Position numbers and translations under genes: made by a program
In this document: piece after piece, positions 1 to 52,088 of the stretch
Position numbering within the stretch: the first letter of the stretch is position 1
Layout: each line of letters opens with the position of its first letter
Notes under the pieces: generated by a model
Told to the model about the DNA's origin: nothing
Databases searched by the model: none
What the model saw: only the letters and a program-made list of their open reading frames with translations
DNA from: a virus
Taxonomy: Duplodnaviria > Caudoviricetes
Direction: 5' to 3' (one strand)
Length of the DNA: 52,088 nt
Virus record (IMG/VR): IMGVR_UViG_3300020044_006097
Coordinates: 1-52,088 of that record

Positions 1-28
1 GCCCAAGCTTGGTTAGCTGCGATGCCAT
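1..28 (-). CDS. o-spanin (Rz1-like), 5' fragment running off the window
   Basis: ATG at 28 after an AGGAG RBS gives MASQLTKLG, matching MLSKLTKIG of 41055..41270. Confidence 0.6.
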
Positions 29-242
29 GATTTATCTCCTGCCTTTGCACGTTAGCTTCTTGAACTACCTCTTGCACATACACCTGAGAGGCCCGGTACG
101 CTGCAGCAGTCGCTTTTAGCTCTACTATAGTACCCTTGGCCTCAGACAGTTCAGATCGTGCCTGTATCAGCAGGTAAAGGCTTCCAGCGCTAACTAAAAG
201 CATGATGATAAACACAAGCACCAGTACTAGTCTAGCCTGCAT
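1..242 (-). CDS. i-spanin (Rz-like), partial
   Basis: Read by hand: MQARLVLVLVFIIMLLVSAGSLYLLIQARSELSEAKG..., an N-terminal TM helix plus coiled coil; orthologue of 41155..41484. Confidence 0.8.
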   Translation of the reverse strand, partial: MQARLVLVLVFIIMLLVSAGSLYLLIQARSELSEAKGTIVELKATAAAYRASQVYVQEVVQEANVQRQEINHGIAANQAW

Positions 243-723
243 AAACACCTCTCAAACAAAGAACAGTCTCTTCATGCCTACGTGTAATCAAACCAGGAAG
301 TACCTTACCCTTAGCGTACCGCCATCTAGGTAGCTGCTTACAGGCTGCCTCTAGGTCGCCTTGCTTAGCGAGCTTAGCTAGGGTACTACTGCATAGGTTA
401 CCCTCGCCTACGTTGAACGTGAAGCTGATTAGAGCCGCTTCGGTCTCCCTATGGAGGGTAGTACCTACGCAACGGTGTACAGCCTTCTGAGCGGTGCGTA
501 AGTCCTTTACAAAGAACTCTGTGCATTGCTCCTTAGAGAAGTGCTGACCTAACGCTAAGCGCGTACTGGTATGACCAACACATGCAGTAAGGATACCTAC
601 CGGGTCTACGTAGACCTTCTGCACCTCACCTTCGTACTTATAAGCTACAGAACCGCCCAGGGCTAATGCCCCGGACAGCCCAGCAGCAGCTAGTCTTGCT
701 TTGATCGCCATGACTTCACCCAT
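232..723 (-). CDS. SAR endolysin, GH24 lysozyme (start may be 711)
   Basis: Gly/Ala-rich N-terminal SAR segment, E-x8-D-x5-T triad (EGEVQKVYVDPVGILT), FNVG and GLxxRRxxE motifs. Confidence 0.92.
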   Translation of the reverse strand: MGEVMAIKARLAAAGLSGALALGGSVAYKYEGEVQKVYVDPVGILTACVGHTSTRLALGQHFSKEQCTEFFVKDLRTAQKAVHRCVGTTLHRETEAALISFTFNVGEGNLCSSTLAKLAKQGDLEAACKQLPRWRYAKGKVLPGLITRRHEETVLCLRGVYAG

Positions 724-896
724 GATTTGATCTGATTGTACGCCTTAGGCGCAGTGATGATAACTAGACAAATACCATAAACTAACATAACAATAGAAAC
801 TACATCCGCTATACTAACACCAGCAATATAAAGGGTACCATAGCCCACCATTGGGGCAGCTTTTGCAGTCTCGACTGCTACATCACTATGAATCAT
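690..896 (-). CDS. holin (pinholin-like)
   Basis: 68 aa, hydrophobic segments with a basic C-terminus, directly upstream of the SAR endolysin. Confidence 0.75.
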   Translation of the reverse strand: MIHSDVAVETAKAAPMVGYGTLYIAGVSIADVVSIVMLVYGICLVIITAPKAYNQIKSWVKSWRSKQD

Positions 897-2680
897 CTAC
901 TTAATCCTCTGCGTCTTAGCGCTTTAGGGGTACGTTTATCATTAACAGGTACTCTTCCAGTACCCATTGGGTCTTTAATGAAGGCTAATGCCTCCGCTTT
1001 AGCCCTAGCACGTTGGCATTTGTCCTCGTCTAGTACTAAATTAGGCGATAAGATACGTACCAGCATTTCTAAGGAGTCCAACCGATCATCTTTATTAAGG
1101 CAACTCCGGTCGGTAGTGATGTTGTGCATCTGATGAAACAGCGAACGGGTAACACGTTTGTCCATAGGGTACTGTTTTAGGTACTCTAAGTCCATATCTA
1201 AAGCTTTACGGTGCACTATCAAGCGATGGCGTTGGATAACAGGGCGTAACGTATCAATAATACGCTTCTCTTTCTGACCCGACGAGTGTATGTCAGAGAC
1301 GCCAACACCTGGTACACGTTGCCTACCGTTCTCACCAGCACCTAGGAAGTAATTAAGTACTAGTTTACCGACTACACCCGCACCCATGTTGTCTTCAATG
1401 TGTACCTGCTTAACGTTAAACGCTAGTACAAGCTCAGCTAGACGCTCTAAATTGTCATCTGATAGACCCCCGCGCAAACCACCAACACCGATTAAGTGTA
1501 TGTACGGCCCTATATTACCGCCAATAGAGAACGCAAGTTCATCACCACCGTCACCAGCGGGATCAACCGTCATTGTAATCTGGTTTAACGGTACAAACTT
1601 ATCGGACATAAAGCCAGGGCGGTACAGCTCAGGTTTAGATACGGGGAATGAAGCATCGAACTCTAAACGCAGTCTAGGCTCAGCGGCCCAACCAACTACC
1701 TCAGGTACATGCTCAGCGGTTAAATCGGCTACAATTAAGTCACGTAAGCGTAGCTGTTGCCGTGCCGCATCCATTAAGGATGTATCTAACATGTATTGAA
1801 GTTGGTAATACTCTGGACCACCTTCTAATTCCTTACCTTGTGCGGCTTCCTCATCATAACGTTCAGGGTCACTAACCCAACCACGTTGACCAGTTAAACC
1901 ACCACCAGACTGGCAGCGATCACCTAGGACTTGCATACGCTCAACAACAGCAGGAGCTAAGTGCTCGCCGTAGTGTTCCATTTCCTCTAACGTAGGGAAC
2001 CGCCCAGGCCAGATACGTACAGTGTAACCACGTGCTGGTAGGTTGTTGTAAATGGATTCCTTAGTTTGAGGCGTACCTAGGTACAGAATACGGCTACCTT
2101 TATCAGCACAGATAGCTGAGAACTCTTTAGTCAGATGCTCTAAGGTCTCGCGCTGCTTAGCTGTTAAACCATTCTTATTAGTCTCTACGTCATCGGGAAT
2201 CAATAAGTCAGCCCGATACCCCGCGATACCTGCGGTAATACCTTTACATACCACAGATGCAGATTTGTTGATACCCTTCAATACCCAGTGTACATCGAAT
2301 TCTAGGAGGGATGTTTTATCCCCTGCGGTACCATCAGGTGTTAGGTAATCAACTAACGGCATACGTTTAATAATCCGATAGATGAGCGTACCGTTTTCGG
2401 CGGCCTTATCCTCACCGCCTGATACTAGCATAACCCGTTTACTGGGGTCTTGTATCAAAGTCCATACCGCGAAGATACACGCAATAGTACTTTTAGCCTC
2501 ACCACGCTGAGCTGACACCATCGCCAGCTCAGGGCAGTCTTGCATAAAGTTAGCTATATCCCGCTGCATCCACGTCATCTTGAAGTTAAGGAACGTCATC
2601 ACGTACTCACAGAAGTCCACGAACCGGGGGTACAGCTCCTTAACTAGTATTGCTTTCTGAATGCGTTCCTCAGGGGTCAT
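893..2680 (-). CDS. terL: terminase large subunit
   Basis: Walker A AQRGEAKST, Walker B LLIPDDVE, LGTPQ motif, nuclease DPAGxGGDE and DDRLD; T7 gp19 family. Confidence 0.95.
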   Translation of the reverse strand: MTPEERIQKAILVKELYPRFVDFCEYVMTFLNFKMTWMQRDIANFMQDCPELAMVSAQRGEAKSTIACIFAVWTLIQDPSKRVMLVSGGEDKAAENGTLIYRIIKRMPLVDYLTPDGTAGDKTSLLEFDVHWVLKGINKSASVVCKGITAGIAGYRADLLIPDDVETNKNGLTAKQRETLEHLTKEFSAICADKGSRILYLGTPQTKESIYNNLPARGYTVRIWPGRFPTLEEMEHYGEHLAPAVVERMQVLGDRCQSGGGLTGQRGWVSDPERYDEEAAQGKELEGGPEYYQLQYMLDTSLMDAARQQLRLRDLIVADLTAEHVPEVVGWAAEPRLRLEFDASFPVSKPELYRPGFMSDKFVPLNQITMTVDPAGDGGDELAFSIGGNIGPYIHLIGVGGLRGGLSDDNLERLAELVLAFNVKQVHIEDNMGAGVVGKLVLNYFLGAGENGRQRVPGVGVSDIHSSGQKEKRIIDTLRPVIQRHRLIVHRKALDMDLEYLKQYPMDKRVTRSLFHQMHNITTDRSCLNKDDRLDSLEMLVRILSPNLVLDEDKCQRARAKAEALAFIKDPMGTGRVPVNDKRTPKALRRRGLSR

Positions 2681-2976
2681 TGTATAACACCACTATAGAG
2701 TCTTAATATATCCGCCTCAGACTCTTTGACAGCAGCTAAGGCGGAACCTGTGCGTGCCCCTTTCTCAACCAACTGCTCACGTAAAGCGGTGAGCGCGTCA
2801 GTATCGCCAGGGGTGTACGCCATGTTGTTAATTTGAAGAAAACGAATAATTGCTGCTTTATCGGCAGCAGGTATTGGTAGCCCTTCAGCTACCGCTACCT
2901 TAACCTCATTGAGTAGTTGTTGGGTGAATAAACCAAACAACTCTTCAAGTTGGCTACCTACATCATTGTTTGGCAT
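2677..2976 (-). CDS. terS: terminase small subunit
   Basis: 99 aa, overlaps the terL start; PAADKAAIIRFLQINN resembles the T7 gp18-like motif. Confidence 0.82.
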   Translation of the reverse strand: MPNNDVGSQLEELFGLFTQQLLNEVKVAVAEGLPIPAADKAAIIRFLQINNMAYTPGDTDALTALREQLVEKGARTGSALAAVKESEADILRLYSGVIQ

Positions 2977-3014
2977 AGTAATATCCTTGACTGTTAAATT
3001 TTAAGCAGTATCGA

Positions 3015-5045
3015 TCATGTCTTGATCTGAGTTATACATATATCAATTGATCGCGGATCAACTTGTGTTGATGTTGCGCCGTTTTGCGCATAGAAAACGA
3101 TGCGCATGTTTGAGCTGGACCTAGATAACATTGACCAGCCACCCATGTGCCCGCTTGCATTTGTGTCGAGTGAAATTGACACGGAATACGTAGGCATTGT
3201 AGCGGGGAGTGTTATAGTATAATCTCCGACTCCAGTTCGCGCAAAATTAGAAGCGGTTAAATAGTCACTAACAACGATAAATGCAGACCCATTCCAATAG
3301 AATTGAGCAGAGATAGATAGTGGTTTTTTGTTGTAATAATCTCGCAGGTTTTTATTGCCTACACTACCTGCAAAATAAGCAACGGAGTTTTTCGTTCCTA
3401 AGTCAGATAGAATTTTGGATTCGGTGTTGTCATGATAAAACGGACGAACAACATTGTTGTCTGCTGTAGAGTCGAGTTTGATCAAAAAATCCATACTTGA
3501 ATCACGCGTCTCAATATATCCACCTTCAATTCTATTTTCATAACCGGCCAATCTATAGCAGTAAACAGGGTCAGAATCCCCAGCTCCAGCCATCATATCT
3601 TGTATTAGATTATCAATAAAAGATGATCCAGTTCCATACTGAGATTCTTGAGATATTGCCATACCGCATGTTTGTATATCCATGTTCGCGATAATTGTTT
3701 TATATGCTGCTGAAGCAGGGCTTAGGGTGCTATCGTCGATTACAACGGCTTTTTTTATCCACCAGCTTTTACTATCCCTGTTTGTGTGAACCTCGCCACC
3801 AGCGTAGGCTGGGTCAGAGCCTGACACATTCCCGTAAACGTACCCATAGCCCCTGACGGCTTGCGATTTTACCCCTGCGTTTGGATAAAGCGCAGCCGAA
3901 ACCCCAAACCGATAATTGCCGACATAGGTATTACTTGAGTCTGTGCGTGTTATATTTCGGAAATCAAAACCTATTTGGATGTTTGCAGGGATTGATGACT
4001 GATGAATATGATTGAGATAAACAGCAAAATCATTACACTTTACATTTGTAACGTAAGAGTTCGATGATAATGGGTTAAAGCTTCTTTTTATCACGCTCCC
4101 AGACGTATTATATTTTGCAAGAAGCGCAGACTTTTCTGTCCCATATCCGCGCAACACAGTGTTTGACTGCAATATGATGCTTACGGACGGATCGATTATA
4201 TACGTACCAAGAAACCTAACTGGCAGGCCAGTTGCAATACATGTGTTAAATGCGGACGTGCTGTCAGGAGTGTATAGCAGGGTGATCGGTTCTGCTCCGG
4301 CCTGCGTTACGTCTATTTCTTCCATGTTTAGTCTTCTGAAATACCCCCCCGATCCAGCAAATGTTATAGCATTATCATATGTTGTTGACCCTGCAACGCC
4401 AACTAGGTCACCGCCACCAAACCCAGTCCCTGCATGATACTCTTTAAGATAATAAGTCCTCCCTACTACTACTGGTGTTGATGCTAGTGCAGCTACATTA
4501 GGTATTACTTGCAGCCTATCAGCTATATCAGCGGCATCTAAGTAGGTCGCCTCCACATTTGACAATCTAATATCTAATGCAGGTACGCTGCTGGCACTAG
4601 GCTCCACTGCTAAGGGTTGCCCATCCGCCCCAAACCCGAGTAGCTTGTTAGCGCGATTATCTGGTATAGGGTTAATGGGTGTAGTGGCACGTAACGTCCG
4701 CAAATAGTTGGTAGCATTATTTTTAAATTCCGCCCACGCTTCCTGAAAAGCGTAAAGGAGTGCCTTCCAATTAAAATCGGAATAGCGCGTTAAGAACGGT
4801 ACGCCATCTGTAAACACATAGGGTACTACCGTTGCATCGGTGTTGCGGAATACCCGGACCCGCGCCCCATTAGCTGGGGCCGGGGTTACACTGACTATAC
4901 CTGATGTTGCAAATGTAAAGCTGACAAGTACCTCATCGACACTTACAGCTACATCACCTGCATTTAAATAGTCGAAACCAATGGCAAACTGAGTTGTAGT
5001 GCCATTACCTGTATAAACATTATCAGTTGTTGGCACTATAGCCAT
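3015..5045 (-). CDS. tail fibre/tail spike with T7-gp17-like anchor and probable beta-helix depolymerase
   Basis: N-terminal YTGNGTTTQFAIGFDYL...VRVFRNT anchor; pectate-lyase-3-like start (VTQAGA...DSTSAFN); AT-richer C-terminal part. Confidence 0.88.
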   Translation of the reverse strand: MAIVPTTDNVYTGNGTTTQFAIGFDYLNAGDVAVSVDEVLVSFTFATSGIVSVTPAPANGARVRVFRNTDATVVPYVFTDGVPFLTRYSDFNWKALLYAFQEAWAEFKNNATNYLRTLRATTPINPIPDNRANKLLGFGADGQPLAVEPSASSVPALDIRLSNVEATYLDAADIADRLQVIPNVAALASTPVVVGRTYYLKEYHAGTGFGGGDLVGVAGSTTYDNAITFAGSGGYFRRLNMEEIDVTQAGAEPITLLYTPDSTSAFNTCIATGLPVRFLGTYIIDPSVSIILQSNTVLRGYGTEKSALLAKYNTSGSVIKRSFNPLSSNSYVTNVKCNDFAVYLNHIHQSSIPANIQIGFDFRNITRTDSSNTYVGNYRFGVSAALYPNAGVKSQAVRGYGYVYGNVSGSDPAYAGGEVHTNRDSKSWWIKKAVVIDDSTLSPASAAYKTIIANMDIQTCGMAISQESQYGTGSSFIDNLIQDMMAGAGDSDPVYCYRLAGYENRIEGGYIETRDSSMDFLIKLDSTADNNVVRPFYHDNTESKILSDLGTKNSVAYFAGSVGNKNLRDYYNKKPLSISAQFYWNGSAFIVVSDYLTASNFARTGVGDYTITLPATMPTYSVSISLDTNASGHMGGWSMLSRSSSNMRIVFYAQNGATSTQVDPRSIDICITQIKT

Positions 5046-5049
5046 GTGA

Positions 5050-8000
5050 TCAATCCTCTTTCATTGCGTTAATTGCGTAAGTAGTACCCGGTATAGCACC
5101 GAGCACTGGGATCAGTGCAGCGCTACCTTTTACAACACCAGGTAATGTCTCATCATCATCCTTAGGGTCATCATTGAATTGCTTAGCTACACCGCCTACT
5201 ATATGTGCAGGCGCGCTAGCAGCGGCCAATAACGGGGCACTTAAACCACCTCGCCCAGTAACACCGAGTATACCAGCCAAATCACCCGCAAAGCCTAAAC
5301 CCGCAGTATAGCCTATAGCTTTCTTAGCTAGTTCCTTTTGATAATCCTCATCACTAAGGTCCCCTAAGGCACCCTTACGGGCTTCGTTAGCGGTCACCAT
5401 TAGAAGTGTGGCCGGGTACTGGTAGGATAGGAGTATTGCATAAGCCATAGGACCCTGATTGTGCAAAGTACCACGCATCAGCTTATTATTGGCTAAACTT
5501 ACGAAACTACGGAATTGGCCTAATACTTGGCCAACCGCAGTACGGGAGAAAGCCGCGCCTTGGCCGGTACGCCCAAATAGGATAGTATCGTCGACATACC
5601 GTAGTACAGTATCTACTACAGCATCAGCATCTGTTCTTTTCCAGGTATCCCAGTTCATACTACGCACTGGCCCTGTATTATCCACATATGTGACTTTCCC
5701 GCCGTTCCGGGCAATAATCCCGTCCCAGTCCAAGTCCTTACTATAAGACTTTAGTACAGCTAAGGCTTCAGTATCCCCACGCATAGCCTTTGCGGTGGTG
5801 CTTATAGCTAAGTTACTAACAACCCGTACCTGATGACTATGCACGTACTTCATCGCAGTAATGAACGGCATAGCCTGCTTACCCATATGTAGCACACGGT
5901 CTATTGCTGAATTATTAGCCGCTACAAAGGTATCGTGCTGAGCATTAAATGGCCTAAAGCGTATATCCCTAGTGAGGTCTACGTTCATTAAGTGTTTAAG
6001 CTCATCAGCCATATCGGGGGTCATACCCTGTAAGGTTTGCCTAAATCCAGGCAAGGCTTTAAACATATGCTTGGCTGTCTCAAACACACCGAAGCGGGCT
6101 GCTACAGTAGCGTACTCCGCAGCCTGCCAAACACCCTGGGCCGCTAACATGGTGGTGTTAGCTAACGCAGCAGCACGTGCCGCATTTGGGCCAAGTATAT
6201 TACGATCTGGTATAGCACCAGTGAAGTCCCCTAACATGGCGTCAAACTGTTGGATAGCCTCATCATACTGTGCCTTTGGTAAGTCTGCTATAGTTTTGGT
6301 AAATTCATTTCTAAAGCTGCCAATTTCAGCATCATCTCTACCAATCCCAGCCTTAGCTAATGCAGCACGACCATTCATAGCAGATAAGTAGTTACCATTA
6401 ATACGGCTTAGGTTAGTATCTAGTAAGTCAATCATACGGAGCACCGACCCATCTGCTGCGCGATATTGCGCTGTAAGGTCCATAGGGATGCGCTTACGTG
6501 CGTACTTAACTACCCCTTTCTCACCTAATTTAGACTCTAGGCGGGATGTAATGGCGACCTTATCTGCCTCCTTCATAGAACTCTTTGATATCAAGTCTAT
6601 TAGGGAGTCAGTATCAATCCTACCTAGCATGCCCATAAAGTCGGTGTTCATACCAGCTTCTTTAGCAATAGCGCGATCAATCCATGCACGTGCAATGGCA
6701 CCAGCATCAGCCTCGTCAATCCCCTTTATGCCCCCCATAATGGCCTGCCGTACTACACCAGTCACAGCCTTCTTGCCGAAACGGGCATCAGTTTGGAATG
6801 CCCTAATCTTATCTGGCATAGCAACACGGTGCACATAACCCGGACGTGGTGTGAAAGCTTCAAAACCAGGTAGGTTAGCCTCCTGTGAGGTCTTACCACT
6901 GCGATTCATCGTAGCTTCTTGTTGAGCCACTAACTTACGTATATTAGGTGCTAGGTTGGGGTTATCTGTAGCGTATCCAAAATTGTTGAACTCCGCATCC
7001 CGTCTAGCAATTTCTGCGTACACCTCAACCTGTAGAGCATCCCGGTCGCGTGTATAACTACCATTTAGGTCTGTAGTACGAGAGAGGAAACTGTGCCCAT
7101 AGGAAGCAGCTAACTCGTCATCTAGCATTTTATCGAACGCAATCTTATCCCCCTCGCTAATGTTATTTAATCTACGGTGGATACTGGCTGCGTTATCAGA
7201 CTGGAAGTAATCTTCACGACGTAGTGGGTCATCTACCATCTTCTTCATATGCGCCCTAGCAGCGGGGGTAGGTGCTACAGCATCAGCCTCCGATGTAAAA
7301 CGGGCAATAGCACCAGCCCGGTCTGTGCTCTTACCACCAAACCAATTACGTTGACCGGTAGCAATCTGCCTACCAACCTCACCACCGAACAAGCCGAACG
7401 CTGCGCCGGATAAGGCAGCGGTAGCAGCGTATTCCCAAACATCAACTTCTTTACCAGCAGCATCCGCAGCGCCTAGTACACCCACGTTAGCAGAGGCACC
7501 TGCAACAGCAGAGGCCATACGGCCCATACGCAATGCACGGGTTGCGCCAAATGTAGCTATATCTGCAACTAAAGTAGCAGGGTCTACCATACCAGTGGCA
7601 AATGCTATGGCACCATGCTCTTGGAGCACTTGCATATCAAAGCTGTGTTGCTTCAAACGCTTAGCTACCGCTGTCATATCCTGAGTAGTACCAGCCTCTC
7701 CTAGCGCTGATAGGTTCTCGTCTGATAGGGGTAGAGCGTACTCTTCCAGTAACGAGCGCGCTAACTCCCCACGGTTCAGGGTAGGATCGATCTCAGAGAA
7801 TTCACTAGATACTTGATTGTTCAGTAACACGTTACTAATAAAGTGCGTGTTGGTGTTACGACGAAAAGCATCCCACTTCTCCCGAGCACTGAACTCAGTA
7901 GTCAGGGTTAGTAAAGCTTGTTGCTCGGCTTGTGCATTTAGTACATCAGTTTGTACAGTACCACCAGTGAACGCTGTGGGTGCTGCTATCAACTCTGCAC

Positions 8001-8067: not shown

Positions 8068-8076
8068 ATAAACCTC

Positions 8077-10635: not shown

Positions 10636-10648
10636 TGTGGCCTCCTAG

Positions 10649-40109: not shown

Positions 40110-40110
40110 G

Positions 40111-40485: not shown

Positions 40486-40487
40486 TG

Positions 40488-41053: not shown

Positions 41054-41054
41054 G

Positions 41055-43922: not shown

Positions 43923-44215
43923 TGCATACTACCCTTGTATAAATCTAGTATATCCGCCTCGGATGCTTTAACCGCAGCTAAAGCAGAACCTGTACGACCC
44001 TTATCCACTAACTGCTCACGAAGGGCAGTTAAAGCGTCCGTATCCCCGGGGGTGTACGCCATGTTGTTAATCTGAAGGAATCTGATAATAGCGGCTTTAT
44101 CAGCCGCTGCTATTGGTAAACCTTCCGCTACAGCGACCTTAACTTCGTTGAGTAACTGTTGGGTAAATAAACCAAACAATTCATCAAGCTGATCACCTAC
44201 ATCTTTGTTTGGCAT
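43919..44215 (-). CDS. terS: terminase small subunit (copy B)
   Basis: Orthologue of 2677..2976. Confidence 0.82.
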   Translation of the reverse strand: MPNKDVGDQLDELFGLFTQQLLNEVKVAVAEGLPIAAADKAAIIRFLQINNMAYTPGDTDALTALREQLVDKGRTGSALAAVKASEADILDLYKGSMQ

Positions 44216-44218
44216 ATA

Positions 44219-44257
44219 TTACCCTTGATTGATTTTTGATACATCACCATTTGGCAT
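44219..44257 (-). pseudogene. abortive terS 5' remnant (MPNGDVSKINQG*)
   Basis: AGGAG RBS; MPNGDV matches the terS starts MPNKDV and MPNNDV. Confidence 0.6.
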
Positions 44258-44270
44258 TTAAACTCCTAGA

Positions 44271-44523
44271 TTACATTAAGGATATACTCATGTACGATGT
44301 AGCGACGCGCAGCCCGGGGCTAGTGCCAGTGATTTGACTCACAAACGCTAATGTATCACCTACCGCTAAGAGTAAATCAATAGCACCTGACGCGGTGAAA
44401 AAAGACGCGGACACAGTTGCAGCAGGTATTGGCATACCTTCCTCCTTAGCCACTTTTACTTCCCCTAACAACTGCTCAGTAAATATTTCAAACAGTTGCT
44501 CTAGTAACTGCGCCTTTGTCCAT
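44271..44523 (-). pseudogene. chimeric remnant: frameshifted terS 5' fragment fused to a probable tail-fibre C-terminus
   Basis: LEQLFEIFTEQLLGEVKVAKEEGMPIPAA aligns with terS; ATG at 44523 is one base out of frame; the remainder is an unrelated beta-strand segment. Confidence 0.75.
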
Positions 44524-44524
44524 A

Positions 44525-46642
44525 CTATGATCCAGTCAAGTAGTACATAGGCTCCCAATCAATATTTAATACATGATTAGAGCCGGTTGTTAATCTTTTG
44601 TATCCAAAAAGCCTGCGCACTGATCCGGCACTTCCTGCTGTAGCTCCAAGCTCAATAAAATGAGTATACCCAGCAGCATAACTTCCTGTTGTTGGCATTG
44701 CTGTTCCGCTTGCGAATCCACCATTGCCTGAACCACCCAAAACTATTCCAGCAGGAAGATACCATGATCCTTGCTTTAGGTTTGTGCTTGCAACATCAGA
44801 ATAAATAATTCTGGCGCTTTCAATAACTCCCATATACAACGAAAGGCCATTACTGGAATGCTGTGAAACGAACTCAGGAACAGATGCTGCCCCACGAATA
44901 CGAAAACCTTCTTTACTGAATCTCGCTGATTGTCCCGGATTCCCGGCGCCTCCGTTGGTATTAGCAATATCCGTGTTTGCAGCAAAACAAATAGGCCTAT
45001 TTGAATAAAGCCCGTTAGACGGGGTCGCCTGTAAAGTTGTCCCTGTTCCCGCCGCATCAGTTACCTGATTTCCTCCAAGCGAGTTATATATTACGCTCCT
45101 ATTTCCAACATTAAATAATACCGGCTGATTTCCTTCGACATAGCAATTTATATAAGCAGACCATTGAGGTTTTGATGAATTTCCAAAATAACCACCAACA
45201 CTATTTATGTCAGCCTCACAAGATATGTAAGTATTCCCTAGCAAAGAGTCATCGTAAAAGCCCCAGCCTGTATTTTGAAAGGTACGACATCCATCAAATT
45301 TACAGGCATTGGCGTCATTGCCAAAAATGTAGAACCCTGATATGGTATTAGATACCGCTGAGCAGTTTTTAAGTTCACACCCATTTGCGTTTCCATTAAC
45401 CCCAGTATCTGATCCGGCAATAATAGCAAAAGGATTTCCGCTTAAACCGGTAACATAAATCTCATCAGCATAGATAGGGCATGTTGTCATTAACCCGCGA
45501 ACACCAGTAGGCGCCGTTGTTTTTGGCTTAATGTAAAATCCTTTCAATGAGGATCGCCTAGCGTCACCAGAATACCCCGGAACAGATGTTGAGCTATGAA
45601 TAAAAAGAATTGCCGCATTGAATGGTGACGCTAAATAGGCCCCTGAAGACGCTAAACTAAATCCAACATTTTCTCTTGTCCTACCAACTAATTTGACAGG
45701 CTTATAAAATACTAAAGTTTCACTGATTAGATATTTACCTAAATTTATTGTTGAGCCAGAAGGGGCGGCAGCTATTAGATTTTTCCATGTAGCAGAATCA
45801 TCATTAACTTCATCACCTATAGCCCCGAACATTTCGGGGGTATAATACCCGTCTAATATCGCATCCCAATAAAACCCAGGAGTTGCTGTATTGCAGCGTG
45901 TGCCCCCATTATTAGTAATAGAACCCGATTTACTAATGTAGCTTAATGTACCTATCCCTGCTACAGTATGCCCTTTCGTCTGTACTACCTGGCCCGCTCC
46001 CACTGTAGGGGTATTTAGTAAATCCGCATAAGTATTTACCCTACGAGGGAAAAGGTTATATAGCGTAATAATAAAATCACTCAGCGTAGGGCCGCGCTTT
46101 AATAGCTTACCAGTGGTTCCGTTATATAACGCAATCTCATCGGTCAAAGATGATACAGGCCCTGAAACCTCAGACCCAGTCAACTCACTATACGGACGTA
46201 TCGCAGGTTGCCCTTGATCGTCAAATAATAAGGCACCATTAGCTCGCGTAGCGGCGTCTGGTAACTCGTTTAAATTATCATCTGCGCGCAAAGTCTTTAG
46301 GAAGTTGTTGGCATTATTTTTAAATTCCGCCCAAGACTCTTGAAACGCATACAGTAAAGCCTTCCAATTATAATCCGCAAGCCGTGTTAGGAACGGTACA
46401 CCCTCTGAAAATATATAGGATACTTTAGTGGCATCAGTGTTACGAAAGACTCGTACTATAGCTCCAGCCGCAGGGGCTGGGCTAATACTCACGACACCGG
46501 GTGTAGCAAAAGTGAACGCCGTAGGTACAACGTTCACTGTTACAGATACATCAGAAGACTTCAGGTAATCAAAGCCGATTGCAAATTGGGTAGTAGTACC
46601 ATTACCTGTGTATACATTATCAGTTGCTGGCACTATAGCCAT
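44525..46642 (-). CDS. tail fibre/tail spike with probable beta-helix depolymerase (copy B; start re-called at 46642)
   Basis: Anchor homologous to 3015..5045; TPEMFGAIGDEVNDDS pectate-lyase-3-like start; C-terminal region unrelated to copy A. Confidence 0.88.
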   Translation of the reverse strand: MAIVPATDNVYTGNGTTTQFAIGFDYLKSSDVSVTVNVVPTAFTFATPGVVSISPAPAAGAIVRVFRNTDATKVSYIFSEGVPFLTRLADYNWKALLYAFQESWAEFKNNANNFLKTLRADDNLNELPDAATRANGALLFDDQGQPAIRPYSELTGSEVSGPVSSLTDEIALYNGTTGKLLKRGPTLSDFIITLYNLFPRRVNTYADLLNTPTVGAGQVVQTKGHTVAGIGTLSYISKSGSITNNGGTRCNTATPGFYWDAILDGYYTPEMFGAIGDEVNDDSATWKNLIAAAPSGSTINLGKYLISETLVFYKPVKLVGRTRENVGFSLASSGAYLASPFNAAILFIHSSTSVPGYSGDARRSSLKGFYIKPKTTAPTGVRGLMTTCPIYADEIYVTGLSGNPFAIIAGSDTGVNGNANGCELKNCSAVSNTISGFYIFGNDANACKFDGCRTFQNTGWGFYDDSLLGNTYISCEADINSVGGYFGNSSKPQWSAYINCYVEGNQPVLFNVGNRSVIYNSLGGNQVTDAAGTGTTLQATPSNGLYSNRPICFAANTDIANTNGGAGNPGQSARFSKEGFRIRGAASVPEFVSQHSSNGLSLYMGVIESARIIYSDVASTNLKQGSWYLPAGIVLGGSGNGGFASGTAMPTTGSYAAGYTHFIELGATAGSAGSVRRLFGYKRLTTGSNHVLNIDWEPMYYLTGS

Positions 46643-46644
46643 GA

Positions 46645-49600
46645 TCAATCCTCTTTCATTGCGTTAATTGCATAGGTTGTACCAGGGATAGCCCCTAGCA
46701 CGGGTATTAAGGCGACACCTCCTTTTACAACATCGGGTAAGGTCTCGTCGTCATCTTTTAAGTCATCATTGAACTGCTTAGCTATACCGCCAACGATGTG
46801 TGCAGGGGCACTAGCAGCAGCTAATAAGGGCGCACTTAACCCACCCCTACCCGTAACACCTAGTATACCCGCCAAGTCACCCATAAAGCCTAAGCCTGCT
46901 GTGTAACCAATAGCCTTCTTGGCTAGCTCCTTCTGGTAGTCCTCATCACTGAGATCACCTAGAGCACCTTTACGGGCCTCGTTAGCGGTCACCATCAACA
47001 ATGTAGCTGGGTACTGGTATGCTAAGAGTACAGCGTATGCCATTGGGCCTTGGTTGTGCAAGGTGCCGCGAAGTAGCTTGTTATTAGCAAGGGATACGAA
47101 GCTTCTGAATTGGCCTAGTACCTGACCTACTGCGGTACGTGAAAACGCGGCACCTTGACCCGTTCTACCAAACAGGATAGTATCATCAACATACCGCAGT
47201 ACAGTATCCACTACAGCGTCAGCATCGGCACGTTTCCAGGTATCCCAGTTCATACTACGCACTGGCCCTGTATTATCCACATATGTGACTTTCCCGCCGT
47301 TCCGGGCAATGATCCCATCCCAGTCCAAGTCCTTACTATAAGACTTTAGTACAGTTAATGCTTCAGTATCCCCTCGCATAGCCTTTGCGACGGTGCTTAT
47401 AGCTAAGTTGCTAACAACCCGTACTTGATGACTATGCACGTACTTCATAGCGGTAATGAACGGCATAGCCTGCTTACCCATATGTAGCACACGATCTATT
47501 GCTGAATTATTAGCTGCTACAAAGGTATCATGCTGAGCATTAAATGGCTTAAAGCGTATATCCCTGGTGAGGTCTACATTCATTAAGTACTTAAGCTCAT
47601 CAGCCATATCAGGGGTCATACCCTGTAAGGTTTGCCTAAACCCAGGCAAGGCTTTAAACATATGCTTGGCTGTCTCAAACACACCGAAGCGGGCTGCTAC
47701 AGTAGCGTACTCCGCAGCTTGCCAAACACCCTGAGCCGCTAACATGGTGGTGTTAGCTAATGCAGCAGCACGCGCCGCATTTGGGCCGAGTATATTACGG
47801 TCCGGTATAGCGCCAGTAAAGTCCCCTAGCATGGCGTCAAACTGCTGGATAGCCTCATCATACTGCGCCTTTGGTAAATCCGCTATAGTTTTGGTAAATT
47901 CATTTCGGAAGCTACCAATTTCAGCATCATCCCTACCAATCCCAGCCTTAGCTAATGCAGCACGACCATTCATAGCAGATAAGTAGTTACCATTAATACG
48001 ACTCAGGTTAGTATCTAACAAGTCAATCATACGGAGTACGGAGCCGTCTGCTGCGCGATATTGTGCTGTAAGGTCCATAGGGATGCGCTTACGTGCGTAC
48101 TTAACTACCCCTTTCTCACCTAATTTAGACTCTAGGCGGGATGTAATGGCGACCTTATCTGCCTCTTTCATAGAACTCTTTGATATCAAGTCTATTAGGG
48201 AGTCAGTATCAATCCTACCTAACATACCCATAAAGTCGGTGTTCATACCAGCTTCTTTAGCAATAGCGCGATCAATCCATGCACGTGCAATGGCGCCAGC
48301 ATCGGCCTCGTCAATCCCCTTTATGCCTCCCATAATGGCCTGCCGTACTACACCGGTCACAGCCTTCTTGCCGAAACGGGCATCGGTTTGAAATGCTCTA
48401 ATCTTATCTGGCATAGCAACACGGTGCACATAACCCGGACGTGGTGTAAAGTCCTCGAAGCCTGGTAGGTTAGCCTCCTGCGAGGTCTTACCACTACGGT
48501 TCATCGTAGCTTCTTGTTGAGCCACCAGCTTACGTATATTAGGTGATAGGTTGGGGTTATCTGTAGCATATCCAAAATTGTTGAACTCCGCATCCCGTCT
48601 AGCAATTTCTGCGTACACCTCAACCTGTAGAGCATCCCGGTCGCGTGTGTAACTACCATTTAAGTCTGTAGTACGGGAGAGGAAACCGTGCCCGTAAGAC
48701 GCAGCTAACTCGTCATCCAGTATTTTATCGAACGCAAGCTTATCCCCTTCACTAATGTTATTCAATCTGCGATGGATACTGGCTGCATTATCAGACTGGA
48801 AGTAATCTTCGCGACGTAGCGGGTCATCTACCATCTTCTTCATATGCGCCCTAGCAGCGGGGGTAGGTGCTACAGCATCAGCCTCAGATGTAAAACGGGC
48901 AATAGCCCCAGCCCGGTCTGTGCTCTTACCACCAAACCAATTACGTTGACCGGTAGCAATCTGCCTACCAACCTCACCACCAAACAAGCCGAACGCTGCG
49001 CCAGATAAGGCAGCCGTAGCGGCGTATTCCCAAACATCAACCTCTTTACCAGCAGCATCTGCTACACCTAATACACCCACGTTAGCGGAAGCACCTGCAA
49101 CAGCAGAGGCCATACGGCCCATACGCAATGCACGAGTAAATCCAAATGTAAAGCCATCTGTAATTAAGGTAGCAGGGTCTACTGCACCCGTGGCAAATGC
49201 TATGACACCATGCTCCTGGAGCACTTGCATATCAAAGCTATGCTGCTTCAAACGCTTAGCTACCTCTGTCATATCCTGGGTAGTACCAGCTTCGCCTAGC
49301 GCTGATAGGTTCTCGTCTGATAAAGGTAGAGCGTACTCTTCCAGTAATGAGCGTGCTAACTCCCCACGGTTCAGCGTAGGATCAACTTCAGAAAACTCAC
49401 TAGATACTTGATTGTTCAGTAACACGTTACTAATGAAGTGCGTGTTGGTGTTACGACGAAAAGCATCCCACTTCTCCCGAGCACTGAACTCGGGAGTTGG
49501 GGCTAGTAAAGCTTGCTGCTCGGCTTGCGCATTCAGTACATCAGTTTGTACAGTACCACCAGTGAACGCTGTGGGTGCTGCTGTCAACTCTGCACCCGTC

Positions 49601-49662
49601 TGGGCATTATCTACCTTAGAGAGTAACTCTTCAGGTGTAAATACTGTATCAATGGTGGCCAT
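46645..49662 (-). CDS. internal virion protein C (copy B)
   Basis: 1005-aa orthologue of 5050..8067. Confidence 0.8.
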   Translation of the reverse strand: MATIDTVFTPEELLSKVDNAQTGAELTAAPTAFTGGTVQTDVLNAQAEQQALLAPTPEFSAREKWDAFRRNTNTHFISNVLLNNQVSSEFSEVDPTLNRGELARSLLEEYALPLSDENLSALGEAGTTQDMTEVAKRLKQHSFDMQVLQEHGVIAFATGAVDPATLITDGFTFGFTRALRMGRMASAVAGASANVGVLGVADAAGKEVDVWEYAATAALSGAAFGLFGGEVGRQIATGQRNWFGGKSTDRAGAIARFTSEADAVAPTPAARAHMKKMVDDPLRREDYFQSDNAASIHRRLNNISEGDKLAFDKILDDELAASYGHGFLSRTTDLNGSYTRDRDALQVEVYAEIARRDAEFNNFGYATDNPNLSPNIRKLVAQQEATMNRSGKTSQEANLPGFEDFTPRPGYVHRVAMPDKIRAFQTDARFGKKAVTGVVRQAIMGGIKGIDEADAGAIARAWIDRAIAKEAGMNTDFMGMLGRIDTDSLIDLISKSSMKEADKVAITSRLESKLGEKGVVKYARKRIPMDLTAQYRAADGSVLRMIDLLDTNLSRINGNYLSAMNGRAALAKAGIGRDDAEIGSFRNEFTKTIADLPKAQYDEAIQQFDAMLGDFTGAIPDRNILGPNAARAAALANTTMLAAQGVWQAAEYATVAARFGVFETAKHMFKALPGFRQTLQGMTPDMADELKYLMNVDLTRDIRFKPFNAQHDTFVAANNSAIDRVLHMGKQAMPFITAMKYVHSHQVRVVSNLAISTVAKAMRGDTEALTVLKSYSKDLDWDGIIARNGGKVTYVDNTGPVRSMNWDTWKRADADAVVDTVLRYVDDTILFGRTGQGAAFSRTAVGQVLGQFRSFVSLANNKLLRGTLHNQGPMAYAVLLAYQYPATLLMVTANEARKGALGDLSDEDYQKELAKKAIGYTAGLGFMGDLAGILGVTGRGGLSAPLLAAASAPAHIVGGIAKQFNDDLKDDDETLPDVVKGGVALIPVLGAIPGTTYAINAMKED
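47276..47290 (-). promoter_or_regulatory. putative phage RNAP promoter (copy B)
   Basis: AGTCACATATGTGGA, unchanged relative to 5681-5695. Confidence 0.75.
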
Positions 49663-49671
49663 ATAAACCTC

Positions 49672-52088
49672 TTAGTTAGATTGCCAATACTCTGTACTAC
49701 CAAATGTAGCTTTAAAGTTGTCGGGGTTTGCAATAGGTAACGCTTGGCGTAGCTTCTGCTGTAATACAGGGTTAGTCACTAAACTCAATGCTTCGTTAAA
49801 CGCTTCTTTGTCACCGGCTGCTATAGCAGCATCAGCAGCTTCTACAACTGCCTGTATCTTATCAGCACCTTCTACGTAAACCGCTGCTACAACAGCAGCC
49901 TTGGCTTGTGGGTGTGTATAGTGCGGAGATACAAAGCGTTTGGTTGCAGCTACCGCTACATCAGTATCCTCACGGAAGGCTCTCTGTGCGTTAGCTTGCC
50001 CTGCGAAAGTTGCTACCTTATCAGGTGCTACTTCATTGATAAACAACCGTGCGTTTTGTACAACAACCTTAGCCTCACCTTGACTATTCCTCCCGTCAAT
50101 GTTGATACTACCGGCAGATGTTTGTACTGGTGTACCAATGGTCTGGGATAGGTTAGCATCAAGTAAAGCCTGCTGCTTCTCTAGCACTTTAGCCCGTACT
50201 GTTTCTACAGGTATAGCCGCTGTAGTAATGTAATGCCCATCCGGTAATTGCTCGTCTTGTACAAAGGATTTATTAACCTTATCCCAACGTACAATACTAG
50301 TAGCACCCTCTAAGCTAGGCGGGGCCAGTTCAATTAATGCCTTACCTATAGCACTTGCATCCGCGTTAGCGCCAAACAGTTTACCTATAGATGTATCCGC
50401 ATCTAGAATGACTGGGCGGACGTCCTTAGAGTCAGCGGCTACAGGTACTGGGATAGTGCGGTTGTAAACTTTACCTACCGCAATCCGCACTTTATCCTCT
50501 TCAGATGCACCCCAGTACGCCGGGTTTGAATCCATGCGGTTTAACTCAGCCCATACGTTGTCTTTTACAGGGATATCTGTGAAGGTAGAATCCTTATTGA
50601 ACCGCCCACCCCACGTGGTATCAAAGGCGCCCTCATCCTGTATAGTGCTGCGATGTTCATCCCACCAGGTTTGTTTAGTTCTTGCTAGCTGGGCGGGGGT
50701 CTGTGCCTTCACCTCTGCTTCTTTGGCAAGGAAAGTACGTAAGGCCGTAGTAGGCTCTACACCGAACTTAGCCTGCCCCAGGATGTAGGACATAGCTCCT
50801 TGTGTATCATCAGGTAAAGCGCCTAACAGTACACTACCTTTAGCGGGGTCAGTCTGCATAGCGGTACTGACTATACTAGTCACAGTGTTGAGGGTGTCTG
50901 TGTATACAGGGTTGGTTTCAGCATCAGGAGAGGTTGCACCGACTGCTCGTAAGGCCTGCCCAACGGATTCACCGTACTGGGATGGGAATGTACCAAAACG
51001 TAGACCAGCTTTAGTAAGTACAACCAATCTCTCAGTAGTACCTACACCGGTTTTACGCAGTAAGGTATCTACTTTAGTTAGAGCCTCTTTTGGACCACCA
51101 TGCTGCCATACACCTTCGGGCCCGTCTTCGATGCCCCTATTCACAGCGTTTAGTAAAGCTTCGTGCGAGCTTTTATCTGCCCCATTACGCTCGGCTTCAC
51201 GTAGTAAAGCAATACCCCGAGATACGCTATATACAGGAGGGTTACGGCTCATCCCATCTTCAACGTGATCCGCGAACTCATCTAAGCTAATATCCCCTTT
51301 GATACCAGCATCTTCCATAGCAGCGAAGTGCGCAGTTTCGGCCGCGAAGTCCTTAGCCTTTGTCCTGTCTTTACTGGCGCGCAGGTTATCAATAACCTTC
51401 TCACGCTTATCAAATGCTAAATTGTCTAGGAGACCTGCATCTAGCATAGCCTCTACAGGCTCACGTTGATCCGCTGCAATTAAGGCATTGACGAACTTCT
51501 CCCCGATCTCCTGCCGGAGTTCTTTAGGTACATCCGTGTTTGCCACGATACTCTGATAGTAAACCACTGCACGACCTTTAGTCGCATCATAAGTCATACC
51601 ATCATTAGCTAGCATGGCATTACCAAGCTCGGATATGATACTGTTACCTTCAGGGGTAATCTTACGCACAGCCTCTTCTATGATATGCTTTCGATGTGCT
51701 GTGTAGTGCTTACTTACTCGCGCAGCGCTAGCTTGAGAAGCGCCAGCTAATAGACCAATCTCCCCATTGCGGGTTAGGCCACCGTTACTTGAAAGGTCTA
51801 ACACCTGTGCGTTCCCGCGTGTCAGGTACTCTTTGACTTTAGGATCGTCAGGGCTTAGTGTCTTACCCTCAGTCTCTAGCCAGCGGTTGTACTCTTGATC
51901 AAACTCTGCGGTCTTGATACGTGCATCTGCATCATTAAATCCACCTTGGGCAAATGGCCGCATAATGGGGTCTACATCCATAGACTCAATGGCGTTACCT
52001 TGTTGCCGAGCAAGCTCCCCTTTTATGTACGTTGTCTTTACATCATGCTGGCACTTGTCAAGGGCGATCCCCTGCCCCATACGTAGTA
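49672..52088 (-). CDS. internal virion protein B (copy B), 5' end outside the window
   Basis: Orthologue of 8077..10635 lacking about the first 47 codons. Confidence 0.78.
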   Translation of the reverse strand, partial: LRMGQGIALDKCQHDVKTTYIKGELARQQGNAIESMDVDPIMRPFAQGGFNDADARIKTAEFDQEYNRWLETEGKTLSPDDPKVKEYLTRGNAQVLDLSSNGGLTRNGEIGLLAGASQASAARVSKHYTAHRKHIIEEAVRKITPEGNSIISELGNAMLANDGMTYDATKGRAVVYYQSIVANTDVPKELRQEIGEKFVNALIAADQREPVEAMLDAGLLDNLAFDKREKVIDNLRASKDRTKAKDFAAETAHFAAMEDAGIKGDISLDEFADHVEDGMSRNPPVYSVSRGIALLREAERNGADKSSHEALLNAVNRGIEDGPEGVWQHGGPKEALTKVDTLLRKTGVGTTERLVVLTKAGLRFGTFPSQYGESVGQALRAVGATSPDAETNPVYTDTLNTVTSIVSTAMQTDPAKGSVLLGALPDDTQGAMSYILGQAKFGVEPTTALRTFLAKEAEVKAQTPAQLARTKQTWWDEHRSTIQDEGAFDTTWGGRFNKDSTFTDIPVKDNVWAELNRMDSNPAYWGASEEDKVRIAVGKVYNRTIPVPVAADSKDVRPVILDADTSIGKLFGANADASAIGKALIELAPPSLEGATSIVRWDKVNKSFVQDEQLPDGHYITTAAIPVETVRAKVLEKQQALLDANLSQTIGTPVQTSAGSINIDGRNSQGEAKVVVQNARLFINEVAPDKVATFAGQANAQRAFREDTDVAVAATKRFVSPHYTHPQAKAAVVAAVYVEGADKIQAVVEAADAAIAAGDKEAFNEALSLVTNPVLQQKLRQALPIANPDNFKATFGSTEYWQSN

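What the first reader, a model, noticed from the sequence alone, without database searches (positions are those of the whole stretch)
1..52088. Two non-identical genomes of a lytic-type phiKMV-like phage joined head-to-tail, with no integrase or att site
Seen: 1-10.5 kb recurs at 41.2-52.1 kb with all frames intact, many synonymous changes and a different tail spike. The join passes seamlessly through the end region (~39.7-39.9 kb) with no host DNA. A normal terminal repeat or circular overlap would be identical and short. Established: T7-like phages replicate as head-to-tail concatemers, and phiKMV-like phages are regarded as strictly lytic. Inference: this is (a) an assembly chimera of two co-occurring strains, which is the most mundane option, (b) a mixed concatemer from co-infection, or (c) a stably maintained tandem array of phage variants with different receptor specificities, which would be new.
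Basis: partly seen in the sequence, partly recalled or inferred. Interest (0 to 1): 0.8.

Follow-up and report, generated by a model that had tools for sequence, protein, structure and literature searches.

The report
Over-lapped phage contig, two strain variants
This record is one roughly 41-kb lytic freshwater phage genome plus a second, diverged copy of its last quarter, and it most likely arose when an assembler stitched two co-occurring strains into one over-long contig, not from a real double genome.

Summary
Window 1-10493 recurs at 41243-52088: 83% identity over the lysis and terminase genes, 91% over the internal virion proteins. All frames are intact, changes are mostly synonymous, and the tail-spike receptor domains are unrelated. 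It is 1.26 genome units, not two genomes. The window is a whole IMG/VR metagenome record with both ends inside genes. Gene order is classic phiKMV/Krylovirinae type. No integrase, resolvase, host gene or tRNA was found.

The best reading (about 0.85) is an assembly artefact. A terminal-repeat phage gives a circular graph. The 30.7-kb single-copy backbone is far longer than any short-read insert, so a short-read contig cannot show that both arms sat on one molecule.

Independent data show a multi-variant population: a third mosaic TerL, variant backbone genes on 1-2.5-kb contigs, and 90-99% relatives in four lake runs. The source reads were not available, so the coverage test could not be run. 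A mixed concatemer or a stable tandem array is not excluded, and neither has positive support. Interest is low.

The parts
1..10493 (-). Arm A: right-hand (late) 10.5 kb of variant A. Rz partial 3-248, SAR-type endolysin 232-723, holin-like 68 aa 690-896, TerL 893-2680, TerS 2677-2976, tail spike A 3015-5045, internal virion protein with endolysin domain 5050-8067, and most of internal virion protein 8077-10635.
   Evidence: Self-BLAST; PHROGs; ORFs; dN/dS.
10494..41242 (-). Single-copy backbone of 30.7 kb, listed here in the order early to late. ORF-poor end region and early genes. Then primase, DnaB-like helicase, ligase, DNA polymerase, exonuclease and endonuclease VII. Then RNA polymerase, portal, scaffold, major capsid, tail tube A/B and a small internal virion protein. 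Its high-coordinate end holds the tail of arm B's Rz/Rz1 and four small right-end ORFs.
   Evidence: PHROGs; no k-mer (k = 21 to 141) shared with either arm.
18173..20695 (-). Single-subunit phage RNA polymerase, placed directly before the structural genes (phiKMV-type position).
   Evidence: phrog_414, E = 2.9e-214; portal at 15988-17511.
38000..39870 (.). ORF-poor, AT-richer stretch where the right and left genome ends meet in the assembly. It presumably holds one collapsed copy of the terminal repeat and early promoters.
   Evidence: Sequence read; GC 0.41-0.42; no Rfam or tRNA hits. In the relative phi-2, TerL ends about 3.3 kb before the right end of the record, which places the end in this stretch. 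The exact termini were not determined.
41243..52088 (-). Arm B: right-hand 10.8 kb of variant B. Rz 41155-41490 with embedded Rz1 lipoprotein ORF 41055-41270, endolysin 41474-41965, holin-like ORF 41932-42138, TerL 42135-43922, TerS 43919-44215, extra 95-aa ORF 44271-44558, tail spike B 44525-46648, internal virion protein 46645-49662, and an internal virion protein cut by the contig end 49672-52088.
   Evidence: Self-BLAST; PHROGs; ORFs; spike comparison.
2994..4681 (-). Receptor-binding part of tail spike A, unrelated to that of B.
   Evidence: Pfam finds only the N-terminal PF03906 domain.
44232..46278 (-). Receptor-binding part of tail spike B plus the extra small ORF. It has a weak, sub-threshold pectate-lyase-like match.
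   Evidence: PF12708 scores 22.4 bits against a cut-off of 27.

Best explanation
The 52-kb record is an assembly product, not a molecule. The real object is an uncultured freshwater phiKMV/Krylovirinae-like lytic podovirus with a unit genome of about 41.2-41.6 kb. It was present in the sample(s) as at least two variants. Their right arms (internal virion proteins, tail spike, terminase, lysis cassette) differ by 6-20% in nucleotide sequence, and their tail-spike receptor domains are unrelated.

A linear genome with direct terminal repeats collapses to a circle in an assembly graph. A walk can therefore run past the genome end. Here it covered 1.26 laps. It took variant B's arm first, then the single assembled version of the 30.7-kb backbone, then variant A's arm.

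Shown:
- the repeat structure;
- intact, purifying-selected alleles in both arms;
- phiKMV-type gene order;
- absence of integrase and host DNA;
- existence of further variants elsewhere.

Inferred:
- that the B-backbone and backbone-A links come from different genomes;
- whether the backbone is truly shared by both variants (a bubble on a circle, which I favour at about 0.55) or hides a strain switch somewhere inside it (about 0.3).
For: (1) The window is an entire IMG/VR metagenome record classed linear. Both ends cut genes: Rz at position 1, and the 852-aa internal virion protein at 52088. They are therefore assembly ends, not genome ends or host junctions.

(2) Repeat spacing of 41,239-41,597 bp equals one genome of this phage type. 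The 12 closest cultured TerL relatives listed have records of 41.3-43.1 kb.

(3) The arms are old alleles: dS is 0.28-1.52, dN/dS is 0.03-0.09 in 5 of 6 pairs, and there are no internal stops. This is expected of two phage lineages, not of a duplication inside one replicon.

(4) Identity between the arms changes in blocks: about 83%, then unrelated, then 70-82%, then about 94%. That is the mosaic pattern of recombining phage populations.

(5) More than two variants exist.
- A third TerL (P0003, on a 4691-bp Logan contig) is 93% identical to both A and B and mixes A-type and B-type residues.
- 3 of the 10 backbone proteins found in the protein collection have cluster mates at 90% identity or more on short JGI contigs. 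These are the capsid protein at 92.4% on a 1152-bp contig, the helicase at 415/416 residues on a 2499-bp contig, and the 180-aa protein at 175/180 on a 1932-bp contig.
- All 4 lake or freshwater runs laid carry 200-700-bp contigs at 85-99% identity.

(6) Two independent Logan contigs bridge 41243 with B-type sequence on both sides: X2 record 12, 41121-41540, 9 differences; X4 record 26, 41139-41418, 5 differences. The B arm is therefore naturally continuous with the right-end region, as in an ordinary unit genome.

(7) The arms share no k-mer at k of 127 or more (longest exact run 126). The whole-contig 21-mer multiplicity is 1.03. A de Bruijn assembler can thus keep the arms as separate paths, and exact-repeat checks would not flag the record.

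(8) The CheckV paper (PMC8116208, passages read) reports IMG/VR contigs with repeated genomes as 'probably artifacts of metagenomic assembly'. It also removed 6,543 contigs with a duplicated region of at least 20% of contig length.

(9) From established knowledge (recalled, no call): T7-type terminases cut concatemers to unit length with short identical terminal repeats, and the capsid does not hold about 126% of a genome.
Against: The decisive data are missing. The source run is not among the runs served (best share of words 0.09), so depth of arms versus backbone and alternative junction reads could not be examined.

The contig ends do not look like a textbook de Bruijn bubble. Only the last 36 nt (10458-10493 = 52053-52088) and the first 6 nt are identical between the arms, not a full k-mer. 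I cannot reconstruct the assembler's path and do not know the assembler or read type.

7 of the 10 backbone proteins found in the 15-billion-protein collection have no second haplotype at 90% or more anywhere. That fits a shared or collapsed backbone, but it is equally what a single molecule with one backbone and two arms would give.

Close relatives may have been withheld from the collection searches. Each search output warns that near records may be left out, so negative searches are weak evidence.
Confidence: 0.85

Rival explanations
1. Mixed replicative concatemer. In a cell co-infected by variants A and B, T7-type replication joins genomes end-to-end through their terminal repeats, so a B-A heterodimer is a normal transient intermediate. 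The contig would be a piece of such a molecule captured from infected cells.
For: The order is what a B-A concatemer would give: B right arm, then one end region, then a full left-to-right genome ending in the A arm. Contig ends at arbitrary points inside genes with no k-mer overlap would fit ends of long reads. T7-like phages do replicate through concatemers (recalled knowledge).
Against: A given heterodimer is a one-off molecule among A-A, A-B, B-A and B-B forms. An error-free consensus over 52 kb, with no internal stop in the six arm gene pairs tested, needs many reads of the same arrangement. Short reads cannot link arms across 30.7 kb. Nothing shows that long reads were used. Even if true it would be expected biology, not a new entity.
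Confidence: 0.07
2. Stably maintained tandem heterodimer or partial duplication. A replicon that keeps two diverged right arms with two different tail spikes would give the lineage two receptor specificities.
For: Both arms have intact, purifying-selected genes and different receptor domains. No second backbone haplotype was found for 7 of the 10 backbone proteins in the protein collection.
Against: No integrase or resolvase (0 of 50 ORFs in PHROGs), and no host flank. No partition or plasmid-replication gene appears among the 34 ORFs with a PHROG hit. 52 kb is about 126% of the unit length of this phage type, which a T=7 T7-type capsid cannot be expected to package (recalled). The concatemer-cutting region lies between the arms, so the terminase would separate them (inference). 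Direct repeats of 5.8 kb at 91-94% identity, with exact runs up to 126 nt, would recombine out in a recombination-proficient phage that carries exonuclease and endonuclease VII (inference). dS of 0.3-1.5 would require the array to be ancient and yet stable. Phages known to use two spikes encode both within one unit genome (recalled).
Confidence: 0.02
3. Other laboratory or pipeline artefact: an amplification chimera, or a co-assembly or contig-merging step that joined contigs from different samples through an approximate overlap.
For: The contig ends lack exact k-mer overlaps, which an approximate-overlap merger or chimeric template would explain more easily than a pure de Bruijn walk.
Against: There is no adapter, no inverted junction and no abrupt breakpoint. 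No inverted repeats of 40 nt or more were found, and gene order is seamless. The method used for the source sample is unknown to me.
Confidence: 0.05

Closest known systems
Repeated-genome ('concatenated') viral contigs in IMG/VR described by the CheckV authors (PMC8116208; passages read)
   Same: A metagenome contig longer than the expected genome, with a large duplicated region (each copy about 20% of the contig). The authors interpret such contigs as assembler artefacts.
   Different: There the copies are the same genome and are detected by k-mer frequency above 1. Here the copies are 9-17% diverged, so the 21-mer multiplicity is only 1.03, no identical end repeat exists, and the record stays labelled linear and 100% complete.
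Pseudomonas phage phi-2 / phiGM22-3 (Autographiviridae, Krylovirinae, Tunggulvirus) and other phiKMV/LKA1-like phages
   Same: Same gene order in the right arm: internal virion protein with endolysin domain, tail fibre, small ORF, TerS, TerL, lysozyme with N-terminal membrane helix, Rz-like protein, a few small ORFs, then the end. Records are 41.3-43.1 kb. The RNA polymerase sits next to the structural genes.
   Different: TerL is only 61.5% identical at amino-acid level. At DNA level only about 70-100-nt patches match any cultured phage. This is a different, uncultured lineage, with relatives in freshwater and lake runs.
Concatemer junction / terminal-repeat region of T7-like phages as it appears in circularised assemblies
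   Same: An ORF-poor stretch between the last late gene and the first early gene through which an assembly runs without a break.
   Different: The terminal repeat, its length and its cutting signals could not be located here. No conserved relatives or reads were available.
Phages with two tail spikes in one genome, such as K1-5 or KP32 types (recalled, no call)
   Same: Two different receptor-binding proteins that share one N-terminal anchor type.
   Different: Those phages encode both spikes inside a single unit-length genome. Here the second spike comes with a second copy of seven neighbouring genes, as two separate genomes would give.

Membership tests
phiKMV-like / Krylovirinae-type Autographiviridae | Single-subunit RNA polymerase gene at the end of the DNA-metabolism block, directly upstream of the structural genes | tested here: met
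   RNAP at 18173-20695 (phrog_414, E = 2.9e-214), followed by a 156-aa ORF and the portal at 15988-17511.
phiKMV-like / Krylovirinae-type Autographiviridae | All genes on one strand in the order early, DNA metabolism, structural, terminase, lysis | tested here: met
   ORF list; PHROGs (34 of 50 ORFs with a family hit).
phiKMV-like / Krylovirinae-type Autographiviridae | Unit genome of about 41-44 kb | tested here: met
   Repeat spacing 41,239-41,597 bp. Relatives are 41.3-43.1 kb.
phiKMV-like / Krylovirinae-type Autographiviridae | Holin, signal-anchor endolysin, Rz and Rz1 cassette after TerL | tested here: met
   68-aa membrane ORF, 163-aa endolysin (phrog_7), Rz (phrog_5151), and an embedded ORF with an LLLPGC lipobox-like motif. 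Function was not assayed.
phiKMV-like / Krylovirinae-type Autographiviridae | Short direct terminal repeats at the physical ends | not testable with these tools
   This needs read ends or virion DNA.
phiKMV-like / Krylovirinae-type Autographiviridae | Membership of a named genus by nucleotide similarity | tested here: not met
   Megablast of 24.5 kb of backbone found only 72-98-nt patches in 20 records. Best TerL match is 61.5% aa.
Repeated-genome assembly artefact (CheckV sense) | Large duplicated region, at least 20% of contig length | tested here: met
   10,493 and 10,846 nt of 52,088.
Repeated-genome assembly artefact (CheckV sense) | k-mer frequency clearly above 1 (identical copies) | tested here: not met
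   21-mer multiplicity 1.03. The copies are diverged, so this would be a strain-mixed variant of the artefact.
Repeated-genome assembly artefact (CheckV sense) | Read evidence: backbone depth equals the sum of the arm depths, and reads close each variant's own circle | not testable with these tools
The 4 runs laid are other samples and hold only Logan contigs.
Integrated or episomal temperate element / stable tandem array | Integrase or other site-specific recombinase | tested here: not met
   Six-frame PF00589 and PF00239 searches: 0 matches, with controls positive. 0 of 50 ORFs hit an integrase.
Integrated or episomal temperate element / stable tandem array | Host flanks, att sites or tRNA target | tested here: not met
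   Both ends lie inside phage genes. No tRNA was found. The record is a whole contig.
T7-type replicative concatemer (mixed A-B) | Single molecules longer than one unit carrying both arm types | not testable with these tools
   No reads from the source sample were available.

The most novel reading that the evidence does not exclude
The two arms really sit on one replicating molecule. This would be a heterodimeric, more-than-unit-length form of a strictly lytic-type podovirus, maintained for example in a carrier state. It would keep two diverged late modules with different tail spikes and so switch or broaden receptor use. The evidence here does not exclude this, because arm and backbone depths could not be measured, and 7 of the 10 backbone proteins found in the collection show no second haplotype.
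Probability: 0.02. Interest if true: 0.75.

Novelty: not a real feature. Interest (0 to 1): 0.12.

Why it matters
The main value is as a data-quality case. A viral record labelled linear and 100% complete is in fact 1.26 genome lengths. It carries two tail spikes that probably never share a virion. Because the duplicated arms are 9-17% diverged, exact-repeat and k-mer checks would not flag it (21-mer multiplicity 1.03). Anyone using it for genome-size, host-range or dual-depolymerase inferences would be misled.

The real biology underneath is ordinary but usable. It is an uncultured freshwater Krylovirinae-like phage lineage whose co-occurring variants differ mainly in the right arm. They show a complete swap of the receptor-binding domain and block-wise divergence that points to recombination. 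If the tandem form were real it would be a new way for a lytic phage to carry two host specificities, but nothing here supports that.

Tried and rejected
(1) Read-level test. The look-up of sequencing runs on 36500-46400 returned only 4 runs, with 5-9% of the sampled words, and none is the source. Laying them on 32100-52088 gave 23, 28, 62 and 42 short Logan contigs at 85-99% identity. They show relatives in lake and freshwater data but cannot give depth or linkage. No run covered 44773-46106 (the spike B receptor part). The one listed joint (38677 to 50994, side 21 nt, one contig) is too short to count.

(2) Searches for close relatives that might show A-only or B-only genomes.
- IMG/VR: the 852-aa internal virion protein gave 0 relatives. 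The TerL alignment gave 1 locus at 26% identity. An exact 38-mer conserved between both arms gave 0. The portal gave 2 loci, at 59% and 31%.
- JGI metagenome contigs: the internal virion protein and tail tube B each gave 0 (both scans used).
- GTDB genomes: TerL gave 0.
- Each output warns that records very near the window may be left out, so these blanks do not prove absence.

(3) I tried to explain the contig ends as de Bruijn-graph vertices. The arms share only 36 nt at one end and 6 nt at the other. metaSPAdes 'weak edge' disconnection removes only one k-mer (PMC5411777, passages read), so it would still leave about k-1 shared bases. I therefore dropped any claim about which assembler or step made the join. 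That the arms share no 127-mer (longest run 126) is compatible with a k = 127 graph (that k-list is recalled), but such a longest run is expected by chance at this divergence.

(4) Locating the terminal repeat. Repeat and promoter/terminator scans of 37000-41300 found only short repeats and no more promoter-like sites than shuffled sequence (6 versus 7.7). The termini are not placed.

(5) Earlier-findings look-ups: by place, nothing; first word search, nothing; second word search gave analogous cases only.

Supplements of the cited papers were not seen.

Full report
WHAT THE RECORD IS

The window is the whole of one IMG/VR virus record of 52,088 bp. It is classed linear, with a CheckV completeness of 100. 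It contains no N. All long ORFs lie on the minus strand, so the phage reads from 52088 down to 1.

THE OBSERVATION

Self-BLAST finds two collinear direct matches. One pairs 1-2993 with 41243-44231 at 83.3%. The other pairs 4706-10493 with 46303-52088 at 91.1%. The repeat finder gives spacings of 41,239-41,597 bp and no inverted repeat of 40 nt or more.

In 200-column windows of a MAFFT alignment, identity changes in blocks:
- 77-90% over the lysis and terminase genes;
- 30-42% (unrelated) over about 2994-4681 versus 44232-46278;
- 70-82% up to about 5680;
- 88-98% from there to 10493.

The repeat runs to both contig ends. The last 36 nt of the record equal 10458-10493, but only the first 6 nt equal 41243-41248.

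In the six arm gene pairs tested there are no internal stops. Nei-Gojobori estimates are:

| Gene pair | dS | dN/dS |
|---|---|---|
| Rz (partial) | 0.53 | 0.30 |
| Endolysin | 0.64 | 0.085 |
| TerL | 1.07 | 0.039 |
| TerS | 1.52 | 0.058 |
| 1005-aa internal virion protein | 0.42 | 0.051 |
| 852-aa internal virion protein | 0.28 | 0.032 |

The two tail spikes (676 and 707 aa) share 104 of 151 N-terminal residues and nothing significant beyond that. Both carry only the T7 tail-fibre N-terminal Pfam domain. Spike B also has a sub-threshold pectate-lyase-like match. In the PDB, both match only a 132-residue 'phage particle protein' over the same N-terminal part.

WHAT KIND OF PHAGE

PHROGs gave a family for 34 of 50 ORFs scanned. 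Searches used E of 1e-5 or less; searches used 1e-3.

The gene order, read from early to late, is:
1. Early small ORFs.
2. Primase, DnaB-like helicase, ligase, DNA polymerase, exonuclease and endonuclease VII.
3. The single-subunit RNA polymerase (18173-20695).
4. Portal, scaffold, major capsid and tail tube A/B.
5. Three internal virion proteins.
6. Tail spike, TerS and TerL.
7. A 68-aa membrane ORF, an endolysin with a hydrophobic N-terminus, and Rz with an embedded lipoprotein ORF.

This is the phiKMV/LKA1 arrangement. The closest cultured TerL is 61.5% identical, in Pseudomonas phages phi-2 and phiGM22-3 (Krylovirinae). The 12 best records listed are 41.3-43.1 kb. The right arm of phi-2 has the same gene order, including a small ORF between the tail fibre and TerS. 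At DNA level nothing cultured is close: 20 records matched, each over only 72-98 nt.

No integrase or resolvase was found in six frames, with positive controls. No tRNA was found and no Rfam family.

After Rz of arm B come four small ORFs (63, 124, 124 and 79 aa). They are followed by an ORF-poor stretch with about 41% GC, from about 39870 to 38000, before the early genes. By comparison with phi-2, the genome ends must meet there, but I could not place the termini.

WHY AN ASSEMBLY ARTEFACT IS THE BEST READING

Several lines point the same way.

- The ends. They cut genes, so they are neither genome ends nor host junctions.
- The spacing. It equals one unit genome.
- The arms. They are old, independently evolving, functional alleles. 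This is what two related phages look like, not a duplication within one replicon.
- The population. It is demonstrably multi-variant.
  - A third TerL (P0003, on a 4691-bp Logan contig) is 93% identical to both A and B and mixes their residues.
  - Of 13 backbone proteins looked up, 10 are in the protein collection. Three of those have cluster mates on other, short JGI contigs. These are the capsid protein at 92.4% on 1152 bp, the helicase at 415/416 on 2499 bp, and a 180-aa protein at 175/180 on 1932 bp.
  - Four lake or freshwater runs from three studies carry 200-700-bp contigs at 85-99% identity to the stretch laid.
  - Two of those contigs bridge 41243 with B-type sequence. Arm B is therefore naturally continuous with the right-end region.
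- The mechanism. A terminal-repeat genome collapses to a circle in an assembly graph. The arms share no k-mer at k of 127 or more, so they can persist as two separate paths. A walk that takes one path and then, after the backbone, the other gives exactly this record.
- The linkage problem. The backbone between the arms is 30.7 kb, far beyond any short-read insert. The contig itself therefore carries no information on whether both arms were on one molecule.
- Precedent. The CheckV authors found IMG/VR contigs with repeated genomes, called them probable assembly artefacts, and removed 6,543 contigs with a duplicated region of at least 20% of their length (PMC8116208, passages read). A strain-resolved assembly paper describes how de Bruijn assemblers either fragment or produce inter-strain chimeras at conserved stretches (PMC11443906, passages read). 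Here the copies are diverged, so the 21-mer multiplicity is only 1.03 and such a check would not fire.

WHAT SPEAKS AGAINST THIS, OR STAYS OPEN

The ends do not carry a full shared k-mer (36 and 6 nt). The metaSPAdes disconnection rule would not remove that much (PMC5411777, passages read). I cannot say which assembler step produced the walk.

Seven of the 10 backbone proteins found in the collection have no second haplotype at 90% or more. This fits a backbone shared by, or collapsed between, the two variants, which I favour. It is also what one molecule with two arms would give.

Searches for close relatives in IMG/VR, JGI metagenome contigs and GTDB genomes were blank or distant. These tools may withhold near-identical records.

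RIVALS

A mixed B-A replicative concatemer from a co-infected cell is biologically plausible for T7-like phages (recalled). However, it is a one-off molecule, and such a molecule could not yield an accurate 52-kb consensus. It would also not be new biology. I give it 0.07.

A stably maintained tandem heterodimer (0.02) faces several objections:
- there is no integrase and no host flank, and no maintenance gene among the ORFs with a family hit;
- the packaging limit and unit-length cutting of T7-type terminases argue against it (recalled);
- 5.8-kb direct repeats at 91-94% identity would be unstable in a phage that encodes an exonuclease and endonuclease VII (inference);
- a dS of up to 1.5 would need a long-lived array.

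Another laboratory or pipeline artefact, such as an amplification chimera or approximate-overlap merging, gets 0.05.

VERDICT

The repeat is real in the record but most probably not in nature. What is real is an uncultured freshwater Krylovirinae-like phage of about 41.2-41.6 kb. It occurs as at least two variants, with a swapped receptor-binding domain and a block-wise diverged right arm.

Interest is low (0.12). The case is useful mainly as an example of an over-lapped, strain-mixed viral contig that exact-repeat quality checks would not be expected to flag.

Noticed in passing
window 40111-40485 and 40488-40862 (minus strand): Two adjacent 124-aa ORFs downstream of the lysis cassette are paralogues (57 of 125 identical, E = 1e-35). 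Neither has a PHROG or Pfam family. This is a tandem gene duplication near the right genome end, of unknown function.
   Followed up: partly
window 44271-44558 (minus strand): Arm B has an extra 95-aa ORF between the tail spike and TerS. Arm A lacks it, with only 38 nt between the two genes there. In Pseudomonas phage phi-2 the same position holds an ORF annotated as a tail fibre assembly protein. The swapped cassette may therefore be a spike plus its helper. The ORF has no family hit.
   Followed up: partly
window about 5680 / 47277, inside the 1005-aa internal virion protein gene: Identity between the arms jumps from about 80% to about 94% within one gene. This looks like an old recombination boundary, so the diverged block extends from the spike into the C-terminal part of the neighbouring gene.
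   Followed up: no
TerL, window 893-2680 and 42135-43922; protein P0003: A third TerL variant from a 4691-bp Logan contig is 93% identical to both A and B. It carries A-type residues at some positions and B-type residues at others, which points to recombination within the population.
   Followed up: partly
window 38000-39870: This ORF-poor stretch (about 41% GC) holds two perfect inverted repeats (38599-38615 with 38660-38676, 17 nt; 38013-38028 with 38080-38095, 16 nt) and a run of ten G at about 39731-39740 on the minus strand. It has no Rfam match. These are candidate end-region signals and were not analysed further.
   Followed up: no
whole window: The record is labelled linear with CheckV completeness 100, although it is 1.26 genome lengths. 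Its 21-mer multiplicity is 1.03, so diverged over-laps of this kind are unlikely to be flagged by k-mer and identical-end-repeat checks.
   Followed up: yes
window 32100-52088 laid on coded runs X1-X4: Relatives at 85-99% identity occur in four freshwater and lake runs from three studies. None of the four runs covers 44773-46106, the receptor-binding part of spike B. That fits this part being the most variable, but a gap in contig cover proves nothing.
   Followed up: partly
backbone genes 14178-15164, 29052-30302, 36546-37088: Full-length variants of these three backbone proteins (92.4%, 415/416 and 175/180 identical) sit on JGI contigs of only 1152, 2499 and 1932 bp. Short contigs of this kind could be strain-variant fragments. 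Their DNA could not be fetched.
   Followed up: partly
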